Shown: in pieces, positions 1 through 42,167 of the stretch
Position numbering within the stretch: the first letter of the stretch is position 1
Layout: every line of letters starts with the position of its first letter
Assembly (NCBI GenBank): GCA_010093995.1
Contig: ML992504.1
Span: 434,001-498,000, forward strand
Reading direction: 5' to 3'
DNA length: 64,000 bases
From: Elsinoe ampelina
Lineage: Eukaryota
Made by a program: the position numbers and the translations under genes
Notes under the pieces: model-generated
The model's database searches: none
What the model was told of the DNA's origin: nothing
What the model saw: only the letters and a program-made list of their open reading frames with translations

Positions 1-57
1 TGAGGTTTGCTATCAAATTTCCTTCTACGCTCGCTACTAACCTGTAATTGTTATCAG

Positions 58-7232: not shown

Positions 7233-8734
<1,502 letters not shown>

Positions 8735-9125: not shown

Positions 9126-9922
9126 TCAGTGGTTTCCTTGATCCTGCAATTGTGGGTCTTCGCTCTGGCTGCCCTCAACCTCGTCCTTCGCATCCTCACC
9201 TTCCTCGCTTCGGAAGCTAGTCTCCTCCAAAGCATTCTCAAGGAGCTTCACCATATTCCAATGTTTCCTCGCTCTTGCTGCTTCAAGTGCGTTGGTTATA
9301 CTGTCACGACGGGGTCTAAATTCCAGGAATATCTCAGCGAACGGCAAGAGACCACGTCGTGCCACAGCATGAAGACCATTGCGCCCATTCCGCCAAGGAG
9401 CGTCCACATCTACGCCCTGGTCTAGCAAGAGCCTGAAGAGTAAGCAGGTCGTTCGTACATCTTTACCACGCCAGCTGTACAGATCATCTTCCATCGCAAT
9501 TTGAAGGGGATGACCGAGGAACCCGGGATTGCCCGGGCTCACAAATTGGTCATGAATGTTAGCACCATGCGAGAGTAGCAACTGTGCGGTTTGCGGTTTC
9601 CCTAGTCTAATCGCCCTGAAGAGAGGCGAGTCTTGCTGACTCGCCACATGTGGATTTGGGTTTGCTCCATGATCCAGCAACAATCGTATGACGACCGATC
9701 CGTCCTGTAGTCTCGATACTGCACGTCCCAGGGCATCTGCGCGTCCATACTTCGAGCTTTCTGGGACATAAGCCTCTGCTCCGTGATCAAGCAACTTACG
9801 GACAACTGCTTCACATTGCGGATCGGCTACAACCTCGTCGAGATCTGGACCATTAAAGACTATACTTTCCAGAGCACAATCCAAAGCATTTAAAGAATCC
9901 TCATTCGTGAAATTGATACTTG
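9126..9922 (-). pseudogene. Detached 3' end (terminal ankyrin repeats and original stop codon) of the NLR gene that starts at 52859
   Basis: Open ankyrin-repeat frame (LLLDHGANPN, SPLFRAIRLG..TAQLLLSHGANI, NGLHAVARRG) begins abruptly at a hAT TIR and joins in frame with 42168-42436. Confidence 0.9.
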
Positions 9923-12900: not shown

Positions 12901-13064
12901 TAAGTGCTCCCGGGTGTAAGAACTATATAAACTATTAAAATAATAGTTGCTTAATAGTGTAGAAGGACTAATTACAGTTAATACGTTACGAAAGTCCTAA
13001 GCGTAGAGAGTTAGAATATTAGGTTTCTCCGTATTAAACTAAGTTTAACTATGTTAGGTCGCTA

Positions 13065-13136
13065 TAAACGTACCGCACCTACCTAAATTTAGTTAAACGT
13101 ACCGTACCTACCTAATTTTAGTTAAACGCACCGTAC
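13065..13136 (+). repeat. 29-bp subterminal tandem repeat, ~2.5 copies (TAAACGTACCGYACCTACCTAAWTTTAGT)
   Basis: Directly visible, ~80 bp inside the left TIR of the Plavaka element. Confidence 0.85.
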
Positions 13137-15097
13137 GTGCTATAGATTAGATAAACGCTCTACTTGCCGCGACTAGAATAGATATAAAAATCAATAAGTA
13201 TCTTCTAGAGAGGGCCCTCTAAGCTAGTATTATTATAGATCTTGTCTACTAGATAGAGGAGAAGTATATACTCTACATTATCGAAGCTTAGTATAGAAGT
13301 ACTTTCGCTATAATAGGAAAGTAGACATTGTATACCTTATTCTCTAGCTTACGACATAAAACTCTAAACTAACACATACTTATTCTAACTCTATTTTATT
13401 GTCTCTACTTAGTTATCTATTAAGGTGTTAGATGTCTCTAAAGATAAGCACTTTCGCGCAACTATATAGCTAGTAACAAAGGTTAATACTAACGAAAAGC
13501 GCCTCTATTACTCTATAGCCTATAAGTTCTACTATCTAGCGGCCTATATCGTCGATAATATAAAACAAGCTTATAGAGGGGCGTTTATAACTTAGGCTCG
13601 TAGATGTAAGGAAGCTTTTCCCGAGAAGGACTTAATTATTATAGCTAAGTATAGTTATAACATCGAGTATAAATACCTATAGACCTGTTCTAGTACTTAG
13701 AAGTCGTTAGTAACGTTAGAAGAGAATAATAATAGAAGCTAGATATACTACGTTAATAGTGGCTATAGTAGCGAGGCTATAGCCTATTCTAAGAAGATTA
13801 ATACTAATACGGACAGGTATAGGAAATGTAATAGATATTTAGTTTAGGCTAAGCTAATTCCTCGTCTACTAACATAGAATAGTATACCTACTAGAAGGAT
13901 AATTCTAGAGCTACGAAAGACTACCTAGAAAAGTAAGGTCTAATAGACATTAGTATAGTATCTAAGTAGCCCCGGAGATAGTACTAAGGATATAGTAGTC
14001 TAAATAATAGCTCGAAGGCGAATATAGTAGAGAAGTAAACGCTCTTTCTAGGAAGTTTAAGATCTACTCTAACTACCTATCTATAAGGTTATTAGTAAGG
14101 AGGTAATTAGTAAGGATAAGAGGCTCCTTCTACTTCTTACTCTTCTTCTCTACCTTGCCGAGCTTAATGCTAGTATAGCTATAGATACTAGCGAAGGTAG
14201 AGGTAGTATACTTCTTACCTTACTAGCTCTCGGCGCTAGTTATAGCAGTCGTCGGAGAGGTAATAGAGGCAGTATCTAGGTTAAGATCGTAGCACTTTAT
14301 TGCTATATATTAAAGATAAGGTTACTCTAACGCGTACTAAGCTTCTAGTAATAACTTATAGTTGTAGCTATATATAAGTAATAGTAGTTACAGAGGGAGC
14401 AGTAGTAGTAGCTTTAGTTATAGTATACCTTACTATAGCGGAGAGTAAGGAGAAAGGTATAGGGGAGAAAGGGAATATCCCTCTCTTAGAGGTAGGTATA
14501 ATAACACTTTTTCCTACTATATTCCGCTACTCTACTATTACTACTACTAAGTAGTAGTTGCAGTAATAGCGCGTGTAGGATAATCTAGTATATAATCTTA
14601 TAGATAGGATTTGTCGTATATATATTATATACTAATAATCTTATAAGGAAATACTTATAACTTACATAGATACGAAGGAGGCTTTAGAGGACAAGGAAGA
14701 GGCTACTTACTATACTAAAGAGTAGCTTCTTCCTCGACTCGTTTTCTACGTATAGTATATATATAGAGATTAATAAGAATGTTCCCTAGCGAGTCTTCTA
14801 AGCTAGTGTTATTATAGATCTTATCTATTAGATAGAAAGGAATAAGTCCTTAGTAACTGCTCTAGTAGCATTAAGTAGATCCCTACGATATAATAGCGAA
14901 TAGAGTAAAGCGCTATTATCTATATTAGAGTCTTATTAGTAAACTTATTATAGAGAATAAACTTTCCTCTTAGACTACTAACTCCGTTAGTAAAACTAAC
15001 TTAAAGATAACTTACTAACCTAAGCCTTTTACTACTATCGCTAAATACTTAGGGTATGTCTTAAGTATCTTAAAGACTAACTTCTATAATGCCTCGC

Positions 15098-15158
15098 TAT
15101 AATTTCCTAAGCTATTATAATTTCCTAAGCTATTATAATTTCCTAAGCTATTATAATT
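15098..15158 (+). repeat. 18-bp tandem repeat, 3.4 copies (TATAATTTCCTAAGCTAT)
   Basis: Perfect copies directly visible; the unit is a multiple of 3, so it may once have been coding. Confidence 0.9.
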
Positions 15159-15649
15159 AGTAAAGGAATAGACTAACTCTTTAGCGTAAAAACTATATAA
15201 GGCACCTTAGGCTATAAACCCTATATAGTTTAGAGACTAACCTAATAATATATAGGTATAAACTAACTAGTTAAGGTAATACCTACGGAAGTTATTATAA
15301 CTCGCTTACCTAATATAGTCTAGTAGTTAACCTAAGTATACCTAAGCGTTAGGCTATCGACGTAAGAGATAATTATTCTAGCTACGAAAGAAGTACTCTA
15401 GCTTCGTTAATACCTACTACGCTTACTAACTACGCCTAGGGATCTTAATCTCTCTCGTTTTAAAGCCTTAGCTAGGTAGAGCTATTTAGACTTCTATAAC
15501 TTATTCTATAGCATGTTATATGTGTTAAAGTCGGCTATATTATTAATGTATATCTAGCTATATAGCTTTATTTTATCTACCGGCACGACGTAAATACTAT
15601 AGTAGATTTATAAGATAGAGTAGACACGCCTACTAGTAAGGGTGTTTCG

Positions 15650-18178
15650 TCTAGCTTACGCGCGTCGATTTGTCTAAGGCTTAATTAGTGTTATACTATG
15701 CTCTTAATTAGCTACTCTATCTAGCCGAGTAGGCTAATATAGATCTACTAGCGCTCCTATATAGTATAGGTGTTAACGCCGGCCCGATCTACTAGACTAG
15801 AAGCTATCCTCTATAGTTATTATAAATATAATACGAGCTAGTAACTTACCTTATAGACTATTAGGTAATACTCCGTTAGTGCCTTTATTGTTTATTATCT
15901 ATTCTTATACCTAGAGCTAGTCTTGCCTCTTATTGCTATATATCTCTTACTATTTAGTTATACACTAGATAAAGTCTTATTCGTCTATATTAGGATTATT
16001 AGAATTATAGTCGAATAGTTTTCTACACTTTAAAGAATAGTAGAACTTAACGTAGAGGTTACTTACCTAGGAAGAATCTAGTTCGAGTCTATTAGGATCT
16101 AGTTCGGCGTTAAACTAATTAGGGTATTTAGTTCTCAAGTTAGAGCCTATATCGGCTATACCTTAATAAGCCTCGCGGACAAACACCGCTATTACTTACT
16201 ATAGTAATAGCCTAGGTGGCATGTTAATAAGCACCTCTAGTTCTCTTACTATATGCTATATAGCTCCCCTCTTAGCACTAGGCTAGCTAAACTAAGAAGT
16301 GACATTTACTATATCGCTTACGCTAACTAGCGTACTTTAGATCTTAATTAGTTTAGCAGCCGATAGCCTAACTAACTTTAAGGGGTTATTAAATACTACT
16401 AATATATTTACTAGTTTAGTATTATAAGTAGTAACTTAGTCTTTCTATCTAGCCTTCTTATTTGTAAGTTTAAAGGCGTCCTTAATAAAGTATATATAAT
16501 TATGCTCTAAATAATTAGAATTAAGGCTAGTAACTACTCTAAAATTATAAATAGCCTTTAAAAAATGTATTATTAAGTACTATTTCGGAAAGTTAAAGTT
16601 ACTCTCTTCTTTCCTATTACTATAATAGGCCTAGAAGGTTTCTTTATACTTATTTATTCTAAAGAGCGCAAGGTTAATATACTAGAGTATATCGTTATTA
16701 TAGGTCTTATAGTTTACTAGTAATATAAAGTCGACTAGTACGCGTATAAACTTAATAGCTTAAGGCGCCTTAACCTCCTCGAGTAGTAGTATAAATACTA
16801 GAAGTATCTAGCGTACGATACTCTTCTACTCTTAACCTGTCTATTACTTAATAGCTAAGTAGTACAAGAAGTGTCGGATGCTAGGAAACACTAGTATACT
16901 ATTAAAACACTTATTAATAATATTAAGTATAATCTTCTTTACCGAGCGCTAGTAGCCTATTTACTATATAGTCTCTCTAGCCTTTATATACCGTAGTAAT
17001 CTCTATATAGGTATTAAATCCTAGAGCAATTTTTAAGTCTAGTGTAAGATATATATTAAAACGCCTTTAAGAAGTTAGTGTAGAATATCTAGTACTATCG
17101 CGTAGTAAATATTAGTATACGGAAGATCCTATATAAAGCAACTAACTATATAAATCTAAGAGCTTATATCTATCTTCTTACTCCGCTACTAACTCTCGTA
17201 TACTTCTCTCTATAAGCGCTATTATTACTACGTAGAGTAGTAAGTTCGGAATAGTATAGTAACTACTAGGTCCTCTCTTTCGTCCTTACCGATTAGGCAA
17301 CTTATATAATAATATAGTAACTTTATACTAGTTATAGTAACCTATTCGGCGTAATTCGTAGATATAGTAGCAAGTATAGAGAAGTACCTCTATCTCTTTC
17401 TATTCGTATAGAAGATTATTTCGCCTTCTCTTAAGTAGTAATTAATAATAGTGTTAAAGATTTTCTTTATATAAGCGTAGTAGGTCTTCTCCTTAACGAT
17501 ATTACTACTATCTTTAATAATAGAAAGTAAGCTAATTAGTAACTACCCCGGCTAGTAGTTGCTATTATATACTTTTACCTTTAGGTTGCCTAATAATAGA
17601 TAGATAGCATATGCTATAAGATCTCCTTAATAGTTTGTTACCTAGGTCTAATTACTTACGACGATTAATGGAATAATAGTAGCCTCTAGTATCCTAAGTC
17701 GCTTTTATGTATTCTACTACTAGTTGTCGCTTGCTATTTCGGTGTATACTTGTTATAGTAGCTTACTCTCGACAGCTTCTATAAAGACTCTATATAGGCT
17801 ATAGTCTATATCTACTACGAAACTACGATAGCTAAGTAAGAAGCGTATTGCTATAAGAATATTTAGATACTAGAACGTGTGTCTTTTAGGCCTATAATTA
17901 GTGTTTAGTATAAAGCTTAAGGTCTACTAGCTATTAATACCTCCGCTTGTATCTAAATTCTCTATCTTCTTTATTAGTTTATTCGTAGTTTGCTAACTAA
18001 GGCTCTTTACTAGAGGTTATATATATAGGTCTTTAAGCAATTACGTAATTATAGCTCTACTAAGTTTCTCCTTTATAAGCTACTAAGTAAGACCTACGTC
18101 TATGCCGCTAATAAAGACTTCCTTTAGTTAAGTCTCGCCTAACTAATTATAATTTATTTTATCGTCGGTATTAGTATA
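15650..18178 (-). pseudogene. Plavaka transposase relic
   Basis: Literal 'VYTEIASDN***NT*KRL...ATIIPLIVVSN*T*VTN' matches the Plavaka consensus RVYSEM.TGDWWW.TQ...GATI.PII..SDKT.LT (~17640-17750). Literal 'DILH*LLKG' = DILHQL.KG (~17063-17090). Ends approximate. Confidence 0.85.
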
Positions 18179-21100
18179 TATATTATAGACTTAGAGAGAT
18201 CTAGACAAGATTAGTTAACGCAAACTAAGAATAAACTATATCTATAACTAACTCTTCGCTACTAGCTAGTATACTAGTAGCTATCTTAAACGTAGTATAA
18301 TTAGATATAGCTCTACTAGATAAGGACAACCTTCTAGTACTCTGCTCTATAGACGTGCTACTAGTTGTACTTACTATAATTACTTACTCTTTCTCGTATA
18401 TGCCTCCTGTTATAACCTCGTTTATGCTCTTCTCTTCCTTATATACGTCGCTATCGAGCCTACTATTACTATTACTGTCTGTTCTACGTACTAGAGGTTA
18501 AGGGTCGAGGTTAGTAAAGAGACTAAGAGGATTATCCGCTATACTATACTATATAGTAGGCAAAGGGGGAAGGACACTCTCTACTAGCTATAGACTTTTG
18601 TTTCTACTCTAGTGTTTAGTTTAATTCTTAGTTACTATTATTTGTAGCAGAGTAAAGTAGACTAGTAAGTTATTTAGCATTAGTAGACTATATCGTATAT
18701 TACTAGTAATACTACCTCGTTAGCCTTTATTAGACAGTAAGCGCTCTCCCTTATTAAATAAGTAAGAATTGTTACTAGTGTTGTCTCTACGTAGATATCT
18801 ATCGCTATATTACTCTAGTAAGACTTACGCTATGTTACTTATTAGTAGCTCTCTCCTCTAGTAATACGGCAGATGTTAGATAAGGCCTCTACTAGATTAT
18901 ATAATCTTCCCGTAGGCTAAGTATTTACTAATTTGCCTTAGTATATTTATGTTTATCGCTTAAGATCTAAATTTGTAGTTAGAGTTAGCTAGCTAAATTT
19001 TAGCGATAGTAGGAAGTAGAAAACATTTAGATGCTATATTATATTAGGTAACCTAAAAGATAGTTTAGTATATACGGGGAACTAAATTAGTCCGCTAAAC
19101 TAAAGAATTGCATTTTTAGGTAATATAGTTAGACTATTATCTAGCAATCTTAATTATTATCTATAATAATTATATTCTTCTTTACCGTAGCTTGTTAAAG
19201 TTTCTAGATCTCTACTCTCTACTTCTCTATTTCCTCGTAGATAACCTTCTATATTATTAATAGCCTACTCTATCTACTATTAAGCTATTCTAGAGGCCTA
19301 TAGAATAGAGCTGTCGGCTTTATTATAAACGCCTCTATATAGTTAGCTTTCTAAGACTTAATGTTCCTACGGACCTAAGCTAGATACTAAAGGACGAATT
19401 ATAACACTAACGCTATATTAAGTAAGATTATAGTATCGAAGCGGTTTAGATTAAGACTAGTCTTAATAGCTCTACTCTAGGCAATTAAGATTCTTAAGCC
19501 TTCCGGCCTATTAGGTTTAATAAACGTATTATTAGACATAGCTACGTTAATAATATCTATATAGACAGGTATAGATATTATTCTATAGTAGACAACAACT
19601 ATATTAGTATCCTTATTAATCCTAATTGCTTTACTGTCTAGGTGCTTCTCGAGCTATTTTAGATACTATACCCTTATTAGTAATAACCTAAATAGACTAA
19701 ATAGACCGAACTAACTATTGTAGTAACTACTAGCACTAATAGTGTAAATGTATAGACGATTACTTGCCTCTTTAGCTCCTTCGAATAGGAGACGTTCTAC
19801 TTAATAATCTTAGAAATAATACTACAAAGGACCTTTATCTAAGGACTAGCGTAGATCTTGTCTATATACTACTATAGCGCTATCTCTAAGAGGTCACGTA
19901 TAATTTTATAGATAAACTTAATAGTAAAGTCGCTAAACTCTTCTATAACTACGGGATTGTCCTAGAATATATCTATAAGAGCAAGAAACATAGAGAAAAG
20001 TAGTAGCGGCGTAACTAGGCTTAGTATTTACTCCTTAGTCTTCTTATTAAGGATTATCTCTAATGTTACTTTAGGCTTATCGGATTTGTCCTTTTACCTA
20101 TTAATTGCCTCTTATACACTCTTATCTATATTCCGTTTAATCTTCTTCTATGTATTTATAAGACTATAAAGATACTTATTCTTAATAGTAATCTCTAGGT
20201 CGAAGGTAGAATATAGTAGAACTCTAATAGCTAGTAGACTAGGAGTAGTATTAAAAGGTTTCTAGATATAGTTTATATTTATCTTAATAAGAATATTCGT
20301 AAGAATAGTGCTCTATTTACTAACTGTTACTATAATCTCTTCTATAAACTATATACTTCTCTTTTTATTAAACTTACTAGAGTTATTATTTGCCTTATAC
20401 TATTTGTTAATTACGAAGGCATAGTCTAATACTATTTAGAAGTTAAGCTTGTTAGTAATAGCTTATTAAGTCTTGTCTAGTGTTGTCTTTAGTGTTACTT
20501 AACGTTTGTTGTCCTTAGCCTTAGTTAGCTTCTACTTAGATTTATAGATATAGTTCTTGTTAAATTCTTCTATTCTACTTCTATTTACATTAAGCTTTTC
20601 TAATCTAAAGTTCTTATATATAGCTACTATTAAGAACGCTACTACGTTTAAGTACTTAATAAATAGCGTCCCGCTTATACCTAGTATAAAAGGCCTCCCT
20701 AGTAGTATTCCTAGACAAAACTAAGTCTATGTCTTCTAGCTAGTAACCTAATAGAACTTATTAAAGATAATAGCGGCCTAGTTTATAGGCGTAGACCCTA
20801 GCTTTCTCTCTTGTCCCTTAGGAATAAAGTTCTAATCCTTAGCGTTTATATTGTTCTTACTAAGGAAGTAGTAGATTATAGTGTTGCGAGTAGTAAAGAA
20901 GAACTAATTATTTATCTATAAGGTCCGGGGGTGTTACTTATATATATTAACTAGTTATAAGACTATAATAGTGTTAATAGGCTTACTAGACTTATCTATT
21001 AGCTAAGACTCCTATTAGCGGCAGTCTATAGGTAGATCCTCTTTGTAAATTAAAGTATTTATATTATATACGTTGCTATACTTATCTTCTCGTATAGCTT

Positions 21101-24100
21101 AGAATATTCTCCCTTAGCATAGAACAACCTTTATATTAGGTATAAACTTCTATGTCTTCTACGCCTACTATTTTATTACGTTTAATCCGCTAATAATTAG
21201 ATTATAGCTAATAATATCTATAGAAGCGATATCTAGCTATAGCTCGTTAACTAGTGTCTTTACCTTCCGGTACTTGCTCTACTTATCCTTAGGTATAGTA
21301 GTATAGTTAGTATTCTAGATAACCTTTTTATTTAAGTTCTAAATTAGTAAGAGAAAGAAGAGTTCTATCGGAGTCTTCCTAAATTCTATCTTATATATAA
21401 ATACAAATACTAGATAGCCTTTAAGGTATTTCTTAAGTGTAATAAGCGCTAAGTACATCTATACTACCTTAACTAGATACTTCTTATTCTAACTAAAACA
21501 CTATATACTAGCGTTCGGTAAGTAGATGTCTTTCTTAAAGCCTATAAAGTTATAGACTCTCTCCTAGAACTCTTTAGACTAGTAATCGATTCTAGTATCT
21601 ATAGGGATAAAGCTTTAGTTAGCTAGATTATTACTAGTTTACTTGTCGTTATTATCATTTATAGTATAAAGTTTAACGAAGTTAAGCTACTAAGAGTCTT
21701 ATTAAATATGCAAGTTATAAGCGCTAGGATAGGTATAGATAGCGTCTTAGGGACTAACGAAATATAGTACCTTACTTGCTTCTTACTAGGTATAATTATA
21801 AAGAGATACTAATTACTATCTCGGCATTACTTATAGTATTTGTCTTCTGTTACCTAAGTAGGACAATAGTCGATAGTAGTATTATCCTTATTAGGTAGTA
21901 GAGAGCTAGGTTACTTCTTAGAGGTAGATTTATATAGTAGTAGGCGCTTAGCTAGAGATAGAGAAGCTAGAGGTTCCTCTTCCTCTTTCTCCTAGACTAG
22001 AGTTAATAGCTTCTAACTATTATAATACTAAAGAGAGTTAACTAAGTATATTAGTATATACCTAAGTCGAACTAAGTATTAAACTTATAAAGTACTTCTT
22101 TAGAGAGCNNNNNNNNNNNNNNNNNNNNNNNNNNNNNNNNNNNNNNNNNNNNNNNNNNNNNNNNNNNNNNNNNNNNNNNNNNNNNNNNNNNNNNNNNNNN
22201 NNNNNNNNNNNNNNNNNNNNNNNNNNNNNNNNNNNNNNNNNNNNNNNNNNNNNNNNNNNNNNNNNNNNNNNNNNNNNNNNNNNNNNNNNNNNNNNNNNNN
22301 NNNNNNNNNNNNNNNNNNNNNNNNNNNNNNNNNNNNNNNNNNNNNNNNNNNNNNNNNNNNNNNNNNNNNNNNNNNNNNNNNNNNNNNNNNNNNNNNNNNN
22401 NNNNNNNNNNNNNNNNNNNNNNNNNNNNNNNNNNNNNNNNNNNNNNNNNNNNNNNNNNNNNNNNNNNNNNNNNNNNNNNNNNNNNNNNNNNNNNNNNNNN
22501 NNNNNNNNNNNNNNNNNNNNNNNNNNNNNNNNNNNNNNNNNNNNNNNNNNNNNNNNNNNNNNNNNNNNNNNNNNNNNNNNNNNNNNNNNNNNNNNNNNNN
22601 NNNNNNNNNNNNNNNNNNNNNNNNNNNNNNNNNNNNNNNNNNNNNNNNNNNNNNNNNNNNNNNNNNNNNNNNNNNNNNNNNNNNNNNNNNNNNNNNNNNN
22701 NNNNNNNNNNNNNNNNNNNNNNNNNNNNNNNNNNNNNNNNNNNNNNNNNNNNNNNNNNNNNNNNNNNNNNNNNNNNNNNNNNNNNNNNNNNNNNNNNNNN
22801 NNNNNNNNNNNNNNNNNNNNNNNNNNNNNNNNNNNNNNNNNNNNNNNNNNNNNNNNNNNNNNNNNNNNNNNNNNNNNNNNNNNNNNNNNNNNNNNNNNNN
22901 NNNNNNNNNNNNNNNNNNNNNNNNNNNNNNNNNNNNNNNNNNNNNNNNNNNNNNNNNNNNNNNNNNNNNNNNNNNNNNNNNNNTAAGCTATACTTAAATT
23001 TCTATAGGAGGTCTTTTATAGAGCGGAATATTATTAGTAGCTATACTAGCGCTATTAGGCTAATTCTTAGACATATTACGTATATCTATAAGCTTAGTAT
23101 ATGCTATAAATAAAGCTTAGAATAATATCTAGTAAATAGGTTAAGTAGGTATAGTAGATGTTAAAGAAGAGATCCTATAAAAGTATTATATATTTATAAG
23201 TTTAGAAGAATTAAGGAGAGGATTTATTAATATAGTAGGTCTATATACTTCGTAATATATACTTAACTAAGACTTAACTAAAGAGGAGATATTTAAGTAA
23301 AGAGCGCTTAAAAGAGAGGTTAAAGAGGTTAAAGAAATACTAGAGAGCTATATAAGTTATTTATTTATATATAAGAGAGTATAAACAAAGGTAAACTAAA
23401 GTAATTAAGGAGAGAAGTAACTTAAATTTAGTTAACTTAGGTTAGGCCCCGAACTAAGCATATAGTAGTATACTAGATATAGTATACATATAATAGTAGA
23501 TTACTTAGTTTAGACACTAAACTAAGAGTAACTATAGTCTATGTACTTAGTTACTTTTTATTTTATATGCTATATACACTAAGAATAATATTGTTATGTT
23601 TAGAGTAGATCTTAAGAGATAATAGTCTAATAAATAGAGGGAATATAGTAGTAGTTAACGTAAAATAATTAAATAATATTTTAATAGCGAAACTAGTATT
23701 TATATACGAAGGACAATAGTAATAGAACATAAATAGAAGGTAGTTAGTAGCCTATAGCGGAATAAAGGGCATAGTATATATAGCGTATAGTATAGCTTAT
23801 AGATGCTAGTAAAGGAACAAAGAAAGTAATATACTACTATCTAATTATCTAGACTTTACAATTGCCGTATACGGAATTAAGTAGTAGAGTAGAGTAAAGG
23901 CTATATATTCCGCGGAACGGGCGGTTAATAGTACATTCTACATAATTATAAATGCGCTTTATTCCTTGCCTAGCCCTACTAGGAAGGTAATAGCGAGAGA
24001 GGACACTACTAGTATAGCTCTGCCTATAACGCTCTCTATAGTAAGCTACTATCTAGTAGAAGATAGTAGATATATCTTTACCTACGATATTCCTCTATCT

Positions 24101-24774
24101 CTTCCTCTTTGTTATACTAGTTGTTTCTTCGTAATTCTCCCCTTAATATCCTTATACTATAAGGTAGATAATCCCCGGTAGACGCTAGCTTCTCTACTCT
24201 CTTTACATACGCTAGAACCTCTAGTAGCGCTATCTATAAGATTAGGAGATGCTCCGTAATAGATTTGCTTAGTCGTAGCTACTAGGTAGAGATAGTAGCT
24301 AGTCCTACTAATAATACGTAGCTAGTGTAAAGGAAGCTATAGAGGGTAGTAGTAGTAGAGAGAGAGAAAGAGGTATCGGAGTCTCCTTATATACTCTTAA
24401 GCCTATAGCGGCGTAGTAGGCAAGATAGAGAGGTATACTATAATAGATTTACTCTAGCGTAACTACTAGGTACTAGCGGTAGTTAATTCTATAAACATAA
24501 CATAGCTAGTATAGAGAATACTATTAGAAGTAGTAGCGATAGCGAGGTAGGAGTAAATATTAGAGTTGCTATTATATATATAGTAATAGATAATTATAGT
24601 GTACTAGGCGAGGAATCCGCTACAATAGATAGCTAACTATTATCGAGGTTAAATAGAGAGGAGAGAAAAGGTTATACTAGGGATACTAATACCTATATTT
24701 AGGTTAGTATAAGCGGAGGGCATAAACTAAGGTATTATAGTAAATCGTATCTACAATGTAGTTATATCGCTATA
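18179..24774 (-). mobile_element. Putative mobile unit 1 (~6.6 kb, includes the N-gap) with a relict intron-containing SNF2-like helicase gene
   Basis: Shares ~415 bp of left terminus and ~775 bp of right terminus with unit 2. Helicase motifs (literal -> de-RIP): VFIYKIEFRKT -> VFAHEMGFGKT (~21373-21405); IIFNKFY -> IIFDEFH (~20751-20771); LGISGTL -> LGMSGTP (~20663-20684); TSLNL -> TGLNL (~19447-19462); LA*VRR (~19365-19383). Confidence 0.7.
22109..22983. other. Assembly gap (875 N)
   Basis: Run of n characters. Confidence 1.
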
Positions 24775-24900
24775 AACAGGGTTTATAACGCATTTATAAT
24801 GCTATAAAGATTATAAGTCTCTAAATATACTATATCTAACTTTAGAGAAGAATATAATTAGATAGTATTACATAATTAAGTTCTAAGGAGTACTTAATCT

Positions 24901-25098
24901 AGTTAGGTCGAAATTTTAGGTTATTCTTAAACTTCGAGAGAGAGGACTAAGACATTGTTAGTTTAACGTAATAAACTACTAGCTGTCCCCTACCGGCCGT
25001 AGTTAGGTCGAAATTTTAGATTATCTTTAAACTTCGAGAGAGAGAACTAAGAAATTGTTAGTTCGATATAATAAACTACTAGCCGTCCCCTGCCGGCT
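24901..25098 (+). repeat. 100-bp tandem duplication in the spacer between units 1 and 2
   Basis: AGTTAGGTCGAAATTTTAG... at 24901 and 25001; the copies differ mostly by transitions. Confidence 0.9.
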
Positions 25099-25463
25099 AC
25101 CCTCTACTACTACTATATATAACATACTAGAGATAGAGTAAAGCAACAATTTACACTACTAAATTTAAGCCGAGTAAGCTTCCTACTAGTAAACACTATT
25201 TTGCTATTAGTTAGACTACTATAGCCTTCGCGTGTGTAACTTAGATATATCTTTAGTACTCTTACATAGGTAGAAGTAGATTTGTTAGAACATTATATAG
25301 GGGCTAGTAAGTATATCCTACTAGAAGGCGCTTCTACTACGACGACTTAACTCGAATTAAAATTATCTATTTAAGTTAGTAGCTTGCCTTTTATTAAACA
25401 TTAAAGCGCCGAGCCGAGGGTCCCTAGCTAAGCTATATCTTATTAATTGCTCGGGGCAAAGGA

Positions 25464-28400
25464 TATATTATAGACTTAAGGAGATCTAGATAAGATTAGT
25501 TAATACAAACTAAGGATAAACTATATCTATTACTAACTCCTTGCTACTAGCTAGTATACTAGTTGCTATCTCGAACGTAGTATAATTAGATATAGCTCTA
25601 CTAGATAAGGATAACCTCCTAGTACTCTACCCTATAGATATACTACTAGTTATACTTACTATAATTACTTACTCTTTCTCGTATATATCTCCTATTATAA
25701 CCTTGTCTATGCCCTCCTCTTCCTCGTATATGTCGCTATTAAGCCTACTATTACTATTACTATCTATTCTATATACTAGAGGTTAAGAGTTAAGGTTAGT
25801 AAAGAGACTAAGAGAATTATCCGCTATACTATACTATATAGTAGGTAAAGGGGGAAGGACACTCTATACTAGCTATAGGCTATCGTTTCTACCTCGTTAC
25901 TTAGTTTAGTTCTTATTTACTATAATTCGTAGTAGAGCTAATAGGACTAAGCTATTATATAGCATCAGCGAACTAAAGCTAAAATTGTATCTACGCTATA
26001 GTACTAGACACATCAAGACAGAGTTTACTCTAATATATCTAGGTAATAGAGTTTGTCGGCTATTTCTCGCTTAAGAACAATATTAAATGCTATACTTAAT
26101 TAGCTATTGTCGCGCTATTATTCTTAGTAGAGACTTTTATAGCAATTATAAAACAGAGAGTACTACGTAGGTATAATAATTTTAGCTAGTAAACGATTTA
26201 TAGCTCTTACTATCTTATGTCTCGACTTGTTACTAGTATTGTAATAAGTTAGTTATAAATAGCCTCTATGAAAAAATAGTAATAGCGGTATACGAAGATG
26301 TCTTAGCTATATAACGTTAGGTCGTTTATACCTATAGTTAATCTATTAGGGGTAGTCGATTAGTTCGCTAAACTAAAACTAGCGCTTTTTAGGTGAAAAT
26401 TATAGGCGTTCCCTTAACCGATCTTAATAAGGATAAACTAATAATTTACTATTACTCCTCTATTAATTTAAACAACTACGCTTTTAGTTTATCTACTTCG
26501 CTATATTGTCTTATATAACCTTCTATATTATCGTCGGTGTATTATAGCTATAGTTAACCTACTTCTTTAGCTAATAGGATAGTATAGTTAGCTTAAGCAT
26601 AAACGCTATTATTATATCTACGCTAGCGAATGTTATATTCTCTAAGGCACTATCGGAAGCCTACTATAATAATTAGATCTATATACTAACTTCGTGTTAA
26701 GCGAAGTTATACTATTAAGGCAGAGGTACTAGTACTCTACTTGTTATAGAACTATATACTATTCCTAGTTACGAACTAACTAGCGTAGCCTTCTTAAAGT
26801 AAGTTTACTTTAATATAGCTACCTCGATAATGCCTATATAGCTTACTATAGACTTCTCTCTATAATCGACAATAACGACTTTAGTGCCCTTACTAATCCC
26901 GATAGCTTAGCTATTCGGGATTCTCTTAAGTTATCGTAGATATAGCTCTCTTATTAGTAACAACCGAACTAGACTAACTAAGTCGAACTAACTACTATAG
27001 CTACTACTAGCGCTATAGAGTTATACGTACGAATAATCCCTTACTACCTCTTAGTCTTCTAACTATAGGCTTTCTGTTCTATAATCTTAAGGATAATAAC
27101 ATAAAGGCTCTATATTTCTAATCTAGCGTAGCGCTAGCTATATACTTGTCTACTACTTCGGCTTAGGGTATAAAGTCTAAGGAGTGTCTATAGCCTCTAC
27201 TATAATATTAGTCGATGTTATTGCTCTTCCTATACTAGTAAGGCAGCGGAGTAAATAAAGTAAGCTTATAATAATATCTAGTATAATTACCTCTAGGTTC
27301 CTTTTACTTGTTAAATATAGATATTATTCTATACTACTCTCTCCTATATAGTATCTCTATAATCGTAGTTAAGGTATACTCCTCTATACGTAAAGCAATT
27401 TATGTATATAGTGCTACTAAAGAATAAGATATCTATCCTCGATTAAAACTTTAAAGTCCTAGTTAGAAATATCTTAAACCTAATAAGACATAAAAGTAGG
27501 CGTAGCTACTAGATGTTTTATAATTAGGTTAAGATACATGTCGAGAGAAATAAATAGAAGTCTAGCTATCTATATAGGGACTAATACGAAGATTTCGAAC
27601 TAGAAACAAGAAGTGACTATTATGTTTACAAAAAGGAGACTATAATAGGCTTTAACTATTCTTATATTACCTTTATATAGGCGGAGAGCTACCTCTCGTT
27701 ATATTATATAGTAATATTAAGTTAAATCGTGTCTAGTTTATCCTCTCTTATTCTTTACAATAGGTACGTCTTTACTACCTATAGATAGAGACTAGCTCTA
27801 CTATGTCGAAGCTACCTTCGTTAAGTAGTAGGTATCTAATTCTTTTCTCTTAGTGTAATTGACCTTATATCGAATATTAAGCTTAATACTAAACCTACGT
27901 ATATAGTCGGTAGAGCTATACTAATACTAAGTAGTAATTACCTAACAAGAAGAGGTATAAGATAGCTAGGCGTTATAGTATTCCCTTAAAGGACTTGTCT
28001 ACCCTAACATAAAATAAGTTTATCTCTAGTTTTAGGCTAACTAAACTAACTTAAGTTTATACTTAGTTAGGAGGCGTAACTTAACCTAAAGCGTCTCTAC
28101 TATTTGTCGGGAGGTAGTAGCTAGAACTAATAATAGTTAGTAGAAATTCTTTATTAACTTCTAAGTATACTACGTGTAAACCTCGCTAGTATATAAGAGT
28201 AAAGCCTAATAACTATATTAGTAGTAACACCTACGCGCTCCTTTATAGTACTATACTATTCTTATTTAATTTAGTTAACTCTAAGTTTAGTATAGAACTA
28301 AAACTTATACTATTACTTCTACTATAATAAGAGATAAGATTCTATCCCGCTAACTTGTTTTACTTATTATTAAACGCTCTAGTCTATTGTATCTATAGTA

Positions 28401-31400
28401 GCATTACTTCGTTTCTATTATTAATAATATTAAGAACATATTACTTTTTTAATGCCGATATTAATCTTATATTAGTAGAAGTAAGTTATTATCTTCTCGA
28501 ACTTACTCTCTTTACTCTAATATATTATAGCGTACTAGGCGAGCTATAGGAAGTTACTAGTAATAAAGTAGAACTTAGGAGAGGTATTAGAGAGCTTCGA
28601 GAGATTATATTTATCTAGATAGATAGCTAGCCTTAGGTGTATAGTAGCTTATATAATATCCTTTAAGCTATTAAAGTAGTAGAAACATAGATAGTACCTT
28701 AGCGGCATATACTATAGTCTAAATAGGCTATATTCTTCTAGCGGAAAAAAAGAAGCTATATTCTTCTAAAACTATATAAAGTAAGACTATACCCCGAACT
28801 AAGTCGCTAGGTCGGTTAAAATCCGTCTAGCTATAGTTATAGAACTATTAAGCAAGTTTACTTCTAATAACAATAATAGAAATTATAGGATTTATAGGGG
28901 CTATAGCCTCTTAGAGGTAGAACAAGCTAAATAAAACTTTATTAGTTAAGAACTAAATAGTTTTATAAATAATATAATAGCAAATAAAACATAGTAGTAT
29001 TACTACTCTTACCTTTAGTAGTTTAGTCACTATCGCGGGTATTAAACGTTCTATATTATAATATTCTTTTTCTACTAATCTCCTTTACGCTTCTTATTAG
29101 TATTAATATCTATAAAGTAAAGCTTCTTAGGAGTAAGAAACACTTCTAAGTTCTCTTCTATAGTAGTCTCGGCTATAGAAAGTAGTCGCTAGCTACTATA
29201 ATATTAATAAGAGTTATCTATAAGTATTAGTATATATAGATAAATAGGAAAGAGGTAAACTTACTTTATATAAAGTCGAGAAGATCTTTAATAGATACTA
29301 TAGAAGGAGTAAGATAGAGAAAGATCTTATAGGCACTAGAGATAAGAGTTGTAACATGCTTAGTAATAGTAGCGTCTAGATCGAAAGAGTCTTTAATAGC
29401 GAAGACTTATATAGAGTTATATATGTTAAGCTAGTAGAGTTAGAGGTAATTACCTCTAATATTAAGGATCTACCTAAGCTTACTAATATAGTAATTAACG
29501 TAACAATTCTTGTCCTTGCTAGTACTAGGCTTTATTAAGTCGTAGATACGGATATTCTTTCTTAATGTTAGATATAAAATAGTATCTACTTTAATAATCT
29601 CTATAATCTAGATCGTAGCAAATTTAATGTTAATCTAGACACAATTAGACGCTAGTCTCTAGTTAAAGCTAAACATTCTATAACGAGGCTATATATATAA
29701 ATCTAATCTCTTATTGCCTGTCTTTATATAAGTTATTTATCTCTCTAAGGATAGTGTTCTTACTTAAAAGAGTATTAGTGTCTATATAGACGAGGTAGCT
29801 AAAGGATATAGACTCTAGGTACCTCCTTTACCTAGCGATGTTATTCTTTCTCTTTTAACTAACGAGAGATTTACCCTTATTAATTATATAGTATTTCGGA
29901 ATAATTGCTATATAGCTTTTATCTTATTAATATTAACTATAGTCCGTAAGTTCTCCTTAAACTAGTCTAGATCTTTTCGATCTAGTTAGTTAATAAAGAG
30001 CTAGAAATTGTTAGGCGTGCTATTTAGTAGCCTAGTTTTAATTTTAAAGCGTGCTTTAAGCACCTTAGAATTACGTAACTCGCTTCTATCTTATTTCTTA
30101 ATTTTAATATTAGATTCTATAAAGACTTTTAAGATTGTTTTTTTTATTCTCGCAAACGTAGTAGAGTATTACTAGTCGTCCTAATTAAAGAAGAATTAGA
30201 TAGATTTCTTACTAATATTATTATTACAAAGTATATTTTTAATAAGAGCTAGCGTAAGGTTATTAAGTAGAATCTTTTCTATAGGTTTAGTAGCGACCTT
30301 TAGCTTCTTTGTCTTTAGTAGTATAGTACTATTATATATATTTAATAAGTGTAAGAATATCTACTAGTAAAGGTGTTATATAAGGCAGGTAAGGTTAGAG
30401 AGGTTAAGATTATATAGCTAGGAACTAAGCGTAGTAAGTTAAGCGCTATAGAGTAAATAGTAGTAATTATAAATACCTACTACCTAGTATAATATTAAAA
30501 TGCTACGCGGAAAGTAGGTAATAACTTCTTAAATATAATAAAATTTGTATTTAAGATAGTATACTAAAGTAAGTAGTATACTTATAACTAAGATCTAGTT
30601 CGGGCCTTAACTTAAAAGTAAACTAGGTTAACTAAGTCTATGTTTCGCACGTGCTAATAGTAATATATAATAATTACTAATATTAGGTCGATGCTAGAAC
30701 TAAAAGTAAATAAGTTAGTTTACTACTAACAAATATTATAGGGCGTAAATTAGGTAAGCAAACAAAACGTAGCTATCGGAGAATATTATAAGTGCTAATT
30801 ATCGTAGAAAATTAGTGTCGAAGTAATTAACTATACTAAACACTTATATATTAGTACTATATACGAAGTTATATATACTTTAAACAGCTAGTAGACTATT
30901 TAACAAAGAGTATTATTGTATAAAGTAACAACCTTAATGTCTTTATAGTAGATAGAAGACAAGATAAATAATAAGGAATAAAGAAAGATATATAGTATAC
31001 TTATACGTATTAGATAAGGAGATTTTATTTACTAGTTAGAGAAGGGGGATTAAAGCAATAGGTATATAATCTATATAGAAAGAAGTACATTACTAACGCG
31101 AGAAAGTTATAATAAAGTACTACTAATAACAAAACTCTGCTATAAAAGCAATTATAAAAGAGAATACTACTAATATAGCTTCGCCTATAATACTCTCTAT
31201 AGTAAGCTACTATCTAGTAGGAGGTAGTAGATGTATCTTTACCTACGATATGCCTTCGTCTTTTCCCCTTTGTTATACTAGTTATTCCTCTATAATTCTC
31301 TTCTTAATATCCTTATACTATAAGGTAAGTAATTTCTAGTAGACGCTAGCTTCTTTACTCTCTTTACATACGCTAGAACTCCTAGTAGTGCTATCTATAA

Positions 31401-31935
31401 GATCGAGAGATGCTCCGTAATAGATTTACTTAGTCGTAGCTACTAGATAGAGACAGTAGCTAATTCTACTAATAATACGTAGCTAGTGTAAAGGAAGCTA
31501 TAGAGGGTAGTAGTAGCGGGGAGAGAGAAAGAGGTATTAGAGTCTCCTTACGTACCCTTAAGCCTATAGCGGCGTAGTAGGTAAGATAGAGAGGTATACT
31601 ATAATAGATTTGCTCTAGCGTAACTACTAGGTACTAGCGGTAGTTAATCCTATAAACACGACATAGCTAGTATAGAGGATACTATTAGAAGTAGTAGCGA
31701 TAGCAAGGCAGGAGTAAATATTAGAGTCGCTATTATATATATAGTAATAGATAATTATAGTGTACTAGGCGGGGGATCTACTATAATAGATAGCTAGCTA
31801 TTATCGAGGTTAGATAGAGAGGAGAGAAAAGGTTACACCGGGGACACTAACGCCTATATTTAGGTCGGTATAAGCGGAGGGCGTGAACTAAGGCGTTATT
31901 ACAAATCGTATTTGTAATGTAGTTATATCGCTATA
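25464..31935 (-). mobile_element. Putative mobile unit 2 (~6.5 kb), paralogous to unit 1
   Basis: Same termini as unit 1 (TATATTATAGAC... and ...GTTATATCGCTATA). Interior diverged at DNA level but homologous in translation (de-RIP AFMLKPTMPSYQP...MMQKVI vs unit 1 AFMMKPTAPFYRP...MMQKVI). Same intron-like segment (GTTAGTTCG...ACTAATAAG). Helicase motifs less clear. Confidence 0.65.
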
Positions 31936-40900: not shown

Positions 40901-42167
40901 GTTATTAGTTATAAAGTAGCCTATTTACTCTTAGAGATTATAGTAAGAAATTACTAAGCCTATTATCTCTGCCAAATTTAATCTAGTATAATAGCTAGCT
41001 TACTAAGGGAGAGCTAGTAAAGTAGTTATTAGCTTACTATTATAATTAATAAAGTAAGTAATAATACTAAGAAGCGCTAGCTTATTCCTTAAGGTCTAGA
41101 GGTTAAAGGAGATATTAATCTTTATAGCTACTAAGATAAGAAGCTTAGTTAGCACTCTAAGCTACTAGTTATATATCCTTCTAATCGTCTAGCTAATAGT
41201 CTAATATAAGGGGAGAAGTACTCTTAAGCGTAGCTAGAGGTACTAAAGTAGCTAATAGAAGACTAGTAACTCTACCTTTCTAAAAGGCATATTATTCGCT
41301 AAGATCTCTAAATATAGAAGTACTTAAAATTAACTTCTATTAAAGCTAGCTACTTACTTACTCTTAATACTTAAGAGCAAATTAGTACTATTACTTATAT
41401 ATTTATAAAGAGTCTTACGCTTCCTTAAAGGCTATAGTATTAGTAGGCTATTAGGTCTAATTAAGTGCTAGTTCTTAAGATAGTAGAGTATAGAGGAGGT
41501 TATAGAGGAGGTCTTAAAAAGGTAATTCTTAGTAGCCTTCCTTATATAGTAGTCTTTACATAACTAATATAATTTTAAGTCCTTCTAGACTCTCTAACTA
41601 AGCCTCTAGATAGGCGCTCTTACTTTCCTATTATTATTAGGTACTAAATAGCCTCTAGGGAGGTATTACTATATAAGTCCCTTATATCTTTAGAGGTTAG
41701 ATTCTAGTAAATTATCTACCTCTTATATAAGGCTATAGAAGTTATTTTTGCGCTAGAATTTGCTCGGAATATATAATTCTAAGGTTGCTAAATCTAATAG
41801 AATATTACTAAAGTCTTTAGAGGCTATAGTAGTAGAGCTATAATTTAGTAAAGTAGTGTTAGTATCTTATTTACAAGGCGGAGAAGGATTTAAGTAAATA
41901 TCTTAGCCCGATAGTAACTCTTCTAATTAGTGTAGATCTATCTATACTACTTCTTAGCCTAACTTACTATCTAAGTCGTATCTATCTTACTATAACTATA
42001 TAAGCACCTATACTACTAATTATCTATTATACTAAGCTAATAAATAAACTAATTAATTAATAAGGAGCTTAATTATTTATTTATAACTATAGCGCTATTT
42101 GTTTGTTTATAGTTTATAAGTAATTTAAGCAATTATAATTAAAATAATTTGTTTATAGACTAGTCTA

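What the first reader, a model, noticed from the sequence alone, without database searches (positions are those of the whole stretch)
18179..31935. Two SNF2-helicase units with conserved ends but no TIR, LTR or transposase: candidate undescribed mobile family
Seen: 18179-24774 and 25464-31935 are same-orientation units of ~6.5 kb. They share a ~415-bp left end (18179-18595 vs 25464-25880) and a ~775-bp right end (~24000-24774 vs ~31161-31935) that differ almost only by RIP transitions. Their interiors are far more diverged and recognisable mainly in translation. Similarity stops at the same base in both copies (TATATTATAGAC... and ...GTTATATCGCTATA), against unrelated flanks. Unit 1 abuts the 5' part of the Plavaka transposase frame. 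The interior is an intron-containing SF2 helicase with SNF2-type motifs. I see no inverted termini, no DDE, tyrosine-recombinase or HUH gene, and at most a TA duplication. Inference: old diverged cargo with homogenised, precise ends suggests a family mobilised through terminal cis-sequences, or cargo modules of Plavaka-type elements. A simple tandem duplication would diverge evenly. SNF2/Rad5-like relics have been reported from de-RIPed Dothideomycete repeats, so the helicase alone may not be new; the terminal architecture is the unusual part.
Basis: partly seen in the sequence, partly recalled or inferred. Interest (0 to 1): 0.82.

Follow-up and report, generated by a model that had tools for sequence, protein, structure and literature searches.

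The report
RIP-degraded Plavaka transposon copies, not new family
The two "units" are the right-hand parts of two mutation-riddled copies of a known kind of cut-and-paste transposon (Plavaka type): one copy is complete, with inverted ends and its transposase gene, and the other is truncated, so this is an ordinary dead transposon and not a new kind of mobile element.

Summary
The repeat is real. The segments 18178-18683/25463-25968 (86.8% identity) and 23998-24774/31159-31935 (89.3%) differ almost only by transitions, while the interiors are nearly unalignable.

1. No helicase was found. Six-frame Pfam scans of both units gave 0 families, although Plavaka, hAT, histone and Gypsy relics in the same RIP block were detected. 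No Walker A or DExH motif was found. One HMMER search and one PDB search were empty.

2. There is a TIR. The last 17 bases of both units have an inverted partner at 12875-12891 (16 of 17 bases match, 0.03 matches expected by chance).

3. There is a transposase. Between these ends lies a Plavaka DDE transposase relic at 17057-17983 on the minus strand (E 1e-23).

So 12875-24774 is one complete element of about 11.9 kb, and "unit 1" is its right 55%. "Unit 2" is a copy cut off about 195 nt upstream of where the transposase domain would begin. Its "left end" is a break point, not a terminus.

The family is multi-copy in runs of the same organism. A flanking gene identifies that organism as Elsinoe ampelina.

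Verdict: a new member of a known kind, of low interest. An unidentified accessory ORF relic (19871-22108) remains unexplained.

The parts
12875..24774 (-). Complete RIP-degraded Plavaka-type DNA transposon (element 1). It is about 11.9 kb including an 875-N gap of uncertain true size. Its genes lie on the minus strand.
   Evidence: It is bounded by a 17-bp TIR and contains the Plavaka transposase relic. RIP indices are given.
12875..12891 (+). Left terminal inverted repeat, TATAGCGAAATAACTAC.
   Evidence: 16 of 17 bases match the reverse complement of 24758-24774 and 31919-31935. Matches at up to 1 mismatch in the whole window, both strands: 3 found, 0.03 expected from 100 shuffles. The match starts exactly at the terminal base.
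13065..13151 (+). Three tandem 29-bp subterminal repeats, about 190 nt inside the left end.
   Evidence: family D12 (100%, 93% and 66% identity). That such repeats are typical of CACTA-type elements is recalled knowledge.
13475..14374 (+). Stretch with 3-base periodicity, purine-rich phase on the plus strand. Possibly a second gene relic; unidentified.
   Evidence: p = 1.6e-4. No Pfam family.
15100..17056 (-). C-terminal part of the transposase gene relic.
   Evidence: 3-base periodicity in the same frame as the Plavaka domain (p = 5.8e-4). It aligns with P0001 beyond the Pfam domain.
17057..17983 (-). Plavaka transposase domain relic (PF18759).
   Evidence: E 1.1e-23, 84.4 bits against a cut-off of 26.3, profile positions 5-317 of 325. 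DLPYTNI is identical to P0001, and the D/D/E, C(2)C and H(3)H positions are kept or changed only in RIP-compatible ways.
18178..18683 (-). Shared 'left segment' of unit 1 (L1). It lies inside element 1 and is probably the N-terminal coding part of the transposase gene.
   Evidence: 86.8% identical to 25463-25968; 3-base periodicity, purine-rich phase 0.65 on the minus strand (p = 7e-4). It has the same orientation as the Plavaka domain and lies 195 nt upstream of it. The link to the transposase gene is an inference.
19208..19870 (.). Moderately conserved collinear block shared with 26482-27142. It shows no periodicity.
   Evidence: (68.7% over 342 columns).
19871..22108 (-). 'ORF-A': a long coding-like relic that runs into the gap. 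Function unknown.
   Evidence: periodicity p = 1.5e-6. No Pfam family. 0 hits in 1.84e9 representative proteins. 0 PDB hits. The strand is inferred from the purine pattern, which is not fully reliable.
22109..22983 (.). Assembly gap (875 N) inside element 1.
23902..24774 (.). Shared 'right segment' of unit 1 (R1). It is the terminal region of element 1 and contains an internal repeat shifted by about 184 nt.
24758..24774 (-). Right terminal inverted repeat of element 1.
24775..25462 (.). Spacer between the copies, unrelated to either. It contains a 100-bp tandem duplication at 24900-25097.
   Evidence: No Pfam family. No periodicity.
25463..31935 (-). Truncated second copy (unit 2). It keeps the right terminus and the transposase-upstream part, but lacks the Plavaka domain and the left TIR.
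   Evidence: The only plus-strand copy of the TIR in the window is at 12875.
25463..25968 (-). L2, the copy of L1. The second copy breaks off at its outer edge.
   Evidence: periodicity p = 2e-3.
29063..30262 (-). Coding-like periodic stretch in the interior of unit 2; unidentified.
   Evidence: p = 5e-4 to 1e-3. No Pfam family.
31063..31935 (.). R2, the terminal region of the second copy.
31919..31935 (-). Right terminal inverted repeat of the second copy.

Best explanation
Both units belong to one family of Plavaka-type cut-and-paste DNA transposons. This family sits in the clade around CACTA/EnSpm and uses a DDE transposase. All copies here have been inactivated by repeat-induced point mutation (RIP).

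Element 1 spans 12875-24774. It has 17-bp terminal inverted repeats, subterminal repeats, a Plavaka transposase gene on the minus strand, and an unidentified upstream ORF relic. 'Unit 1' is simply the part of this element that also survives in the second copy.

The second copy (25463-31935) keeps the same right terminus and terminal region (R). It also keeps the stretch just upstream of the transposase domain (L), and then breaks off. Its 'left end' is a truncation point and not a terminus.

L and R differ almost only by transitions. They therefore shared a recent ancestor and diverged by RIP alone. The region between them (accessory ORF or cargo) had already been replaced or had long diverged between two sub-lineages. 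This is usual for DNA transposons, which must keep their ends and transposase region but not their interiors.

Shown: the repeat, the TIR, the transposase relic, RIP, and multi-copy status.

Inferred: that L encodes the N-terminal part of the transposase, that the original termini were CA..TG or TGT..ACA, that the target duplication is 2 bp, and how copy 2 was truncated.
For: 1. TIR. The reverse complement of the last 17 bases of both units occurs once more in the window, at 12875-12891 on the plus strand, with 1 mismatch. That is 3 matches at up to 1 mismatch against 0.03 expected, and 0 of 100 shuffles reached 3. At 0 mismatches with one W there are exactly these 3 sites. The match begins at the terminal base and is the best hit between the two 800-nt end regions.

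2. Transposase. PF18759 (Plavaka) is found at 17057-17983 on the minus strand, E 1.1e-23, covering profile positions 5-317 of 325. It lies between the two TIR arms. The alignment with P0001 shows DLPYTNI identical. SSDKT aligns with SNXT, GDYME with TNYAE, CPCC with YISC and HYLIH with YLIIH. These differences are explained by RIP-type transitions, D to N, C to Y and H to Y.

3. Coding signal. L shows coding-type 3-base periodicity on the same strand as the transposase (p = 7e-4 and 2e-3). The 195 nt between L and the domain have the same pattern as the domain's frame.

4. Termini. TAT...ATA can derive by RIP (TpG or CpA to TpA) from TGT..ACA, reported for PlavakaA. It can equally derive from CA..TG, which is general for the clade (PMC12730594, passages read).

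5. Flanks. The 2-bp flanks AG and AA differ by one transition.

6. Positive controls. The same scans detect hAT, histone and Gypsy pol relics in the same RIP block, yet nothing inside the units.

7. Copy number. In two runs of one sample, 4127 and 5163 contig pieces at 80% identity or more lay on 25100-32400. Changes were nearly all transitions. Summed depth over L and R was about twice that of the interior.
Against: - The TIR is short (17 bp) and is seen in only one complete copy. No second complete copy or empty site could be examined, because no whole genome is held.
- The 2-bp target duplication is not exact (AG vs AA), and that G is not in a canonical RIP context.
- L is in a different frame from the Plavaka domain, so an indel or a small intron must be assumed.
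- No homologue was found that covers the region N-terminal of the Pfam domain. Searches returned only P0001, a fragment that starts inside the domain.
- R1 is joined to the rest of element 1 across an assembly gap.
- In one search both flanks of unit 2 have about the same summed depth as its interior. This could mean that a larger block was amplified rather than single elements.
- The 12 loose-end rows shown include none at 25463 or 31935, and 325 further rows were not shown.
- The strand of ORF-A rests on a purine-pattern statistic that called the wrong strand for the Gypsy pol gene.
Confidence: 0.78

Rival explanations
1. The 6.5-kb units are themselves the mobile entities of an undescribed family. 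They lack TIR, LTR and transposase, and move through their conserved terminal cis-sequences, perhaps with the help of a helicase they encode.
For: Both outer boundaries are sharp and fall at the same base in two copies with unrelated flanks. The ends are far better conserved than the interiors. The family is multi-copy.
Against: The right end pairs as an inverted repeat with 12875-12891, beyond the Plavaka transposase, not with the unit's own left end. The left boundary lies inside a coding-like stretch that continues into the transposase relic. There is no helicase, HUH or tyrosine-recombinase signal in 18 frame translations covering the units, no Walker A or DExH motif, and no target duplication at the unit boundaries.
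Confidence: 0.05
2. The two-unit arrangement is part of a larger composite block that was amplified as a whole by segmental duplication. This would resemble the 26-kb X3X3R8 repeat of Parastagonospora nodorum, which holds a full and a partial, 10-20% divergent copy of one sub-repeat. The Plavaka copies would then be passengers of that block.
For: In one search the summed depth of both flanks (about 12-15k in X1) equals that of the unit-2 interior (about 10-15k). L and R reach about twice that (21-31k), as expected if every copy of the block holds two L and two R. X3X3R8 is described in PMC3017866 (passages read).
Against: Summed contig depth is not a copy number, as the tool itself warns. The flanks may simply be other abundant transposons. 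Two sub-lineages that share L and R explain the twofold depth equally well. No ubiquitin-conjugating enzyme or SNF2 relic, the marks of X3X3R8, is present anywhere in 10000-49000. This model also does not explain the TIR. It is compatible with the main explanation rather than opposed to it.
Confidence: 0.12
3. Assembly artefact. The duplication, or the joining of R1 to the Plavaka part, results from a mis-scaffold across the N gap in a repeat-rich region.
For: An 875-N gap lies inside unit 1. Only 0.57 and 0.55 of the sampled words of 25000-32400 were found in the two runs.
Against: L1/L2 and R1/R2 differ at 11-13% of sites, so they are distinct copies and not one copy assembled twice. The TIR pairing of 12875 with 24774 fits the scaffold order.
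Confidence: 0.04

Closest known systems
Plavaka DNA transposons (PlavakaA/PlavakaB lineages of the CACTA/EnSpm-Mirage-Chapaev-Transib clade; Kojima 2025, PMC12730594, passages read)
   Same: The transposase matches Pfam PF18759 well above the cut-off. TIRs are present. The termini are RIP-compatible with TGT..ACA or CA..TG, and a 2-bp target duplication is possible. The C(2)C and H(3)H positions are preserved or changed only in RIP-compatible ways.
   Different: The host is a Dothideomycete (Ascomycota). The passages read describe reconstructed Plavaka families from Agaricomycotina. All copies seen here are dead through RIP. There is no TET/JBP gene (no Pfam hit). The upstream ORF relic has no detectable relatives.
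CACTA/EnSpm elements of plants and fungi
   Same: Large TIR-bounded elements with subterminal repeats, a DDE transposase plus further ORFs, and variable interiors between conserved ends (recalled knowledge).
   Different: Pfam assigns the transposase to Plavaka, not to the EnSpm families. CACTA termini and a 3-bp duplication could not be shown.
X3X3R8 repeat of Parastagonospora nodorum (Hane & Oliver 2010, PMC3017866, passages read)
   Same: A RIP-degraded Dothideomycete repeat with two tandem, partly matching sub-units.
   Different: That repeat derives from an endogenous gene cluster (Rad5/SNF2-like helicases and a Rad6 ubiquitin-conjugating enzyme). Neither domain is detectable here, and the organism is different.
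Helitrons
   Same: They have no long TIRs, variable interiors between conserved ends, and a helicase.
   Different: No Rep/helicase domain was found. The ends are not TC...CTRR. A TIR and a DDE-type transposase are present instead.

Membership tests
Plavaka (CMCT-clade DDE transposon) | Transposase with the Plavaka domain (Pfam PF18759) | tested here: met
   84.4 bits against a curated cut-off of 26.3, E 1.1e-23, profile positions 5-317 of 325, at 17057-17983 on the minus strand, read with X at stops.
Plavaka (CMCT-clade DDE transposon) | Terminal inverted repeats enclosing the transposase gene | tested here: met
   17 bp, 16 of 17 identical, at 12875-12891 and 24758-24774. 0.03 matches expected by chance. 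Only one complete copy was available.
Plavaka (CMCT-clade DDE transposon) | Termini 5'-TGT..ACA-3' (PlavakaA), 5'-CATCA..TGATG-3' (PlavakaB), or generally 5'-CA..TG-3' (PMC12730594) | tested here: inconclusive
   Observed TAT...ATA. RIP (TpG or CpA to TpA) could give this from TGT..ACA or from CA..TG. The PlavakaB form does not fit. The pre-RIP sequence cannot be read from two copies.
Plavaka (CMCT-clade DDE transposon) | Target site duplication of 2-3 bp | tested here: inconclusive
   The flanks are AG and AA (2 bp, one transition apart). The 3-bp flanks GAG and AAC do not match.
Plavaka (CMCT-clade DDE transposon) | [quoted passage not shown] | tested here: inconclusive
   pairwise alignment with P0001 only. 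CPCC aligns with YISC and HYLIH with YLIIH. C to Y and H to Y are RIP-type changes, so the motifs are compatible but not intact.
   0 families in the six frames of 25464-31935 at E up to 0.1, and none inside 18178-22108 or 22984-24774 at E up to 1. Other relics in the same block were detected.
   0 matches to G.GK[TS] and 0 to [DN][EK][ATVI][HY]..[KR] in 12 frames. The motif patterns are recalled knowledge.
Helitron | Rep (HUH) plus Pif1-type helicase; 5'-TC and CTRR-3' ends; no TIR | tested here: not met
   No such Pfam family was found. The ends are ATATATT... and ...CGCTATA. A TIR is present. The end rules are recalled knowledge.
LTR retrotransposon | Direct long terminal repeats; gag/pol | tested here: not met
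   There is no similarity between the left and right segments and no RT or integrase in the units. The neighbouring Gypsy element was detected by the same scan.
X3X3R8-type endogenous gene-cluster repeat | Relics of Rad5/SNF2-like helicases and a Rad6 ubiquitin-conjugating enzyme | tested here: not met
   There is no SNF2_N, Helicase_C or UQ_con hit in any of 30 frame translations covering 10000-49000.

The most novel reading that the evidence does not exclude
An ascomycete (Dothideomycete) lineage of Plavaka transposons carries a large accessory gene with no detectable relatives (ORF-A, 19871-22108 and into the gap). Sub-lineages keep near-identical ends and transposase 5' region while exchanging the whole module between them.
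Probability: 0.2. Interest if true: 0.4.

Novelty: new member of a known kind. Interest (0 to 1): 0.18.

Why it matters
The finding removes a false lead. What looked like a transposase-less, TIR-less helicase element is a complete and a truncated copy of a Plavaka-type DNA transposon, seen through heavy RIP.

It has modest value. It gives a TIR-delimited Plavaka-like element in a Dothideomycete plant pathogen. It also shows that the family makes up part of an AT-rich isochore next to ordinary genes.

The method point is general. In RIP-degraded DNA, the limit of similarity between two copies can be a truncation point, so ends should be sought beyond it.

Tried and rejected
**Unavailable or empty look-ups**
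- Whole genome: none is held, so no genome-wide copy census or empty-site search was possible.
- Earlier notes of this scan: nothing by place or by sequence.

**Searches for a function of the interior**
- HMMER of the unit-1 minus frame 18507-22106 against 1.84e9 representative proteins gave 0 hits at E up to 1e-3. Only this one of six frames could be sent, because the cap is one job.
- PDB sequence search with ORF-A gave 0 hits at E up to 1.

**Search for full-length Plavaka relatives**
- Word-indexed protein searches with the Plavaka region, and with its alignment to P0001, returned only P0001 among 8000 scored candidates. No full-length relative was obtained, so I could not test whether L matches the N-terminus of the transposase. 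tblastn of P0001 against the window gave only a 28-residue hit.

**Methods that proved uninformative or unreliable**
- Gapped BLASTN on purine/pyrimidine-recoded sequence: shuffled controls scored nearly as high. I replaced it with the ungapped diagonal scan.
- Stop-codon density per frame did not single out a frame.
- The purine-periodicity strand call is unreliable. It put the Gypsy pol gene on the wrong strand.

**Alternative end structures tested**
- A TIR between the unit's own two ends, or a 40-nt partner anywhere in the window, was not found.
- The spacer's right end has no inverted partner, so a hAT insertion as the cause of the truncation was not shown.
- The 29-bp subterminal repeat has no copies at the right end.

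**Limits of the read-laying result**
- The absence of loose ends at 25463 and 31935 among the 12 rows shown is not evidence, because 325 rows were hidden.
- Depth is a sum over contigs and is not a copy number.

**Literature**
- A search on Elsinoe ampelina transposons listed 6 of the 7 papers holding the terms. I opened none, and none is a transposon study by title or abstract start.
- The supplements of PMC3017866 (old .xls files) and of PMC12730594 (Plavaka sequences, termini figure) were not read. They could bear on the comparison of termini.
Full report
**Setting**

The window has GC-rich gene regions at 1-10000 and 48500-64000 (about 52% GC). Between them lies a 38-kb AT-rich block of about 31% GC.

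[quoted passage not shown] TpA/ApT is 1.9 and (CpA+TpG)/(ApC+GpT) is 0.23, against 0.57 and 1.28 in the flanks.

A flanking gene (53319-54935, minus strand) is 100% identical over 90% of its length to a hypothetical protein of Elsinoe ampelina. It is 69% identical to one of E. fawcettii. The window therefore comes from that Dothideomycete or a very close relative.

No whole genome is held for the window. Earlier notes of the scan hold nothing on it.

Yes, in its core.

- Self-BLASTN gives 18178-18683 vs 25463-25968 (86.8% over 507 columns), 23998-24774 vs 31159-31935 (89.3% over 777), and a weak collinear hit 19538-19870 vs 26815-27146 (68.7%).
- The outer limits fall at the same base in both copies, against unrelated flanks.
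- In the end segments almost all differences are transitions: 40 against 4 transversions in 420 nt of L, and 81 against 2 in the 777 nt of R.
- In the interiors a global alignment is 45-63% identical, with 40-81 transversions per 250 columns.
- In purine/pyrimidine coding, which RIP cannot alter, only a few diagonals reach 80% over 120 nt. These are L (to 25999), two blocks at 26482-26631 and 26769-27142, R (from 31063), and a 184-nt shifted self-match within R. About 3.9 kb of the unit-2 interior has no counterpart in unit 1.

So there are four sharp limits, not two. L and R share a recent ancestor and have since diverged by RIP alone. The middle parts do not.

**The helicase**

I translated all six frames with X at every stop and scanned them against Pfam. 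The scans covered unit 2, 10000-22108, 22984-25500, 31900-40300 and 40200-49000.

Nothing was found inside either unit. The same scans found the following relics elsewhere in the block:

| Relic | Position (strand) | E-value |
|---|---|---|
| Plavaka transposase domain | 17057-17983 (minus) | 1e-23 |
| hAT dimerisation domains | 11126-11362 and 10144-10299 (minus) | 1e-6 and 0.007 |
| Histone fold | 37795-37965 (minus) | 7e-4 |
| Gypsy RT, RNase H, integrase and SH3 | about 42937-45567 (minus) | 1e-12 to 7e-5 |

Detection therefore works at this level of RIP.

Further negative results:
- No frame of either unit holds a Walker A motif or a RIP-tolerant DExH pattern (0 matches in 12 frames).
- A PDB sequence search with 19871-22106 found nothing at E up to 1.
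- tblastn between the units found interior similarity only at 26296-27148, and in all six frames, so it reflects DNA similarity and not a reading frame.

The helicase reading is therefore unsupported. It probably echoes the Rad5/SNF2-like relics reported from the X3X3R8 repeat of Parastagonospora nodorum (PMC3017866, passages read). That is a different organism, and its marker domains (SNF2, ubiquitin-conjugating enzyme) are absent from the whole block.

**The ends**

The unit's own two ends are not inverted repeats of each other.

A RIP-tolerant search for the reverse complement of the right end, run upstream of the Plavaka relic, gave a hit at 12875. At the nucleotide level it is TATAGCGAAATAACTAC against TATAGCGATATAACTAC.

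- At up to one mismatch, the window holds exactly three sites on both strands: 12875-12891 (+), 24758-24774 (-) and 31919-31935 (-). Dinucleotide shuffles give 0.03 expected, and none of 100 shuffles reached 3.
- The match starts at the terminal base and is the best match between the two 800-nt end regions.
- About 190 nt inside the left end lie three tandem 29-bp repeats.

Hence 12875-24774 is a TIR-bounded element of about 11.9 kb, gap included, with the Plavaka transposase relic inside it.

The 2-bp flanks are AG and AA. The 3-bp flanks do not match.

The termini TAT...ATA can derive by RIP from TGT..ACA. That form, with 2-bp duplications, is reported for PlavakaA. They can also derive from the clade-wide CA..TG (PMC12730594, passages read). 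I cannot decide between these.

**The transposase gene**

Aligned with P0001, the only relative the word-indexed searches returned, the relic keeps DLPYTNI unchanged. At the positions of the catalytic D, D and E and of the C(2)C and H(3)H motifs it shows either the same residue or D to N, C to Y and H to Y. These are the changes RIP makes.

Purine content shows coding-type 3-base periodicity along 15100-17983 on the minus strand (p = 6e-4 and 7e-3). The same type of periodicity appears in L1 (p = 7e-4) and L2 (p = 2e-3). The 195 nt between L1 and the domain follow the domain's frame.

I infer that L is the N-terminal coding part of the transposase gene, joined through an indel or a small intron. 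This step is not shown.

Further upstream, 19871-22108 has the strongest periodicity of the region (p = 1.5e-6) but no detectable relative. I call it ORF-A. A shorter periodic stretch lies at 29063-30262 in unit 2, and another, on the plus strand, at 13475-14374.

**What the units are**

Unit 1 is the part of element 1 that also survives in the second copy.

The second copy keeps the right TIR, the terminal region R, the moderately conserved block and L. It stops at 25463, about 195 nt before the Plavaka domain would begin. It has no left TIR and no Plavaka domain. Its left 'end' is therefore a truncation point.

How it was truncated is unknown. The 688-nt spacer has no family, no periodicity and no inverted partner.

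The contrast between the ends and the interior fits a DNA transposon family in which sub-lineages keep the terminal region and the transposase region while the intervening module is replaced.

**Copy number**

Two DNA runs of one sample and one study hold 0.57 and 0.55 of the sampled words of 25000-32400.

Laid at 80% identity on 25100-32400, 4127 and 5163 contig pieces matched. Most pieces are short, and the changes are almost all transitions. Summed depth is about 10-15k (X1) over the interior and both flanks, and 21-31k over L and R.

The twofold depth of L and R fits two sub-lineages that share these parts. It equally fits amplification of a larger block holding both units, as in X3X3R8. 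The depths are sums over contigs and not copy numbers, so I leave this open as a compatible rival.

**Verdict**

This is a RIP-killed Plavaka-type transposon family: one complete and one truncated copy. It is a new member of a known kind, in a class of fungi where the passages I read do not describe reconstructed Plavaka families.

Searches behind that statement: (17 papers hold 'Plavaka' and 'transposon'; passages of two were read).

It is not a new class of mobile element and not a helicase carrier. ORF-A remains unexplained.

Noticed in passing
window 42442-48643: A RIP-degraded Gypsy/Ty3 LTR retrotransposon lies on the minus strand. Its LTR pair is 42442-42626 and 48459-48643 (85% identical). 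The pol relics are RVT_1 at 45106-45567, RNase H at 44626-44910, the integrase zinc domain at 43837-44007 and the Tf2-type SH3 domain at 42937-43113. Its right LTR abuts the first GC-rich gene.
   Followed up: partly
window 10144-10299 and 11126-11362 (minus): Two hAT C-terminal dimerisation domain relics lie at the left edge of the AT block, just outside the Plavaka element. Coding-type periodicity on the minus strand runs to about 12550. The Plavaka element may have inserted into or beside a hAT element.
   Followed up: partly
window 37795-37965 (minus): A histone-fold relic (PF00125, E 7e-4, below the curated cut-off) lies inside the RIP block. A RIP-degraded repeat with histone H3 similarity (R25) is reported from Parastagonospora nodorum (PMC3017866).
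   Followed up: no
window 15098-15158: There is an array of an 18-bp unit (TATAATTTCCTAAGCTAT); family D13 shows three overlapping 25-nt copies at 18-nt spacing, all 100% identical. It lies inside the RIP-degraded element. Its perfection suggests it arose after RIP ceased to act here.
   Followed up: no
window 24900-25097: A 100-bp tandem duplication (89% identical) with G+C-rich ends (..CCGTCCCCTACCGGC) lies in the spacer between the two copies.
   Followed up: no
window 24166-24590 and 31327-31751: The shared right segment contains an internal repeat shifted by about 184 nt. It appears as off-diagonal matches between the two copies. It may be a subterminal repeat of the transposon.
   Followed up: partly
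window 13174-13257 and 14753-14836: An 84-nt direct repeat (80% identical) lies 1.6 kb apart in the left part of the Plavaka element. It brackets the plus-strand periodic stretch 13475-14374.
   Followed up: no
window 48484-49848 (minus) and 53319-54935 (minus): The AT block is directly flanked by intact genes. One is an ankyrin-repeat ORF whose 3' end runs into the Gypsy LTR. The other is a gene whose relatives are named chitin-binding type-4 or lytic polysaccharide monooxygenase, 100% identical to an Elsinoe ampelina protein.
   Followed up: partly
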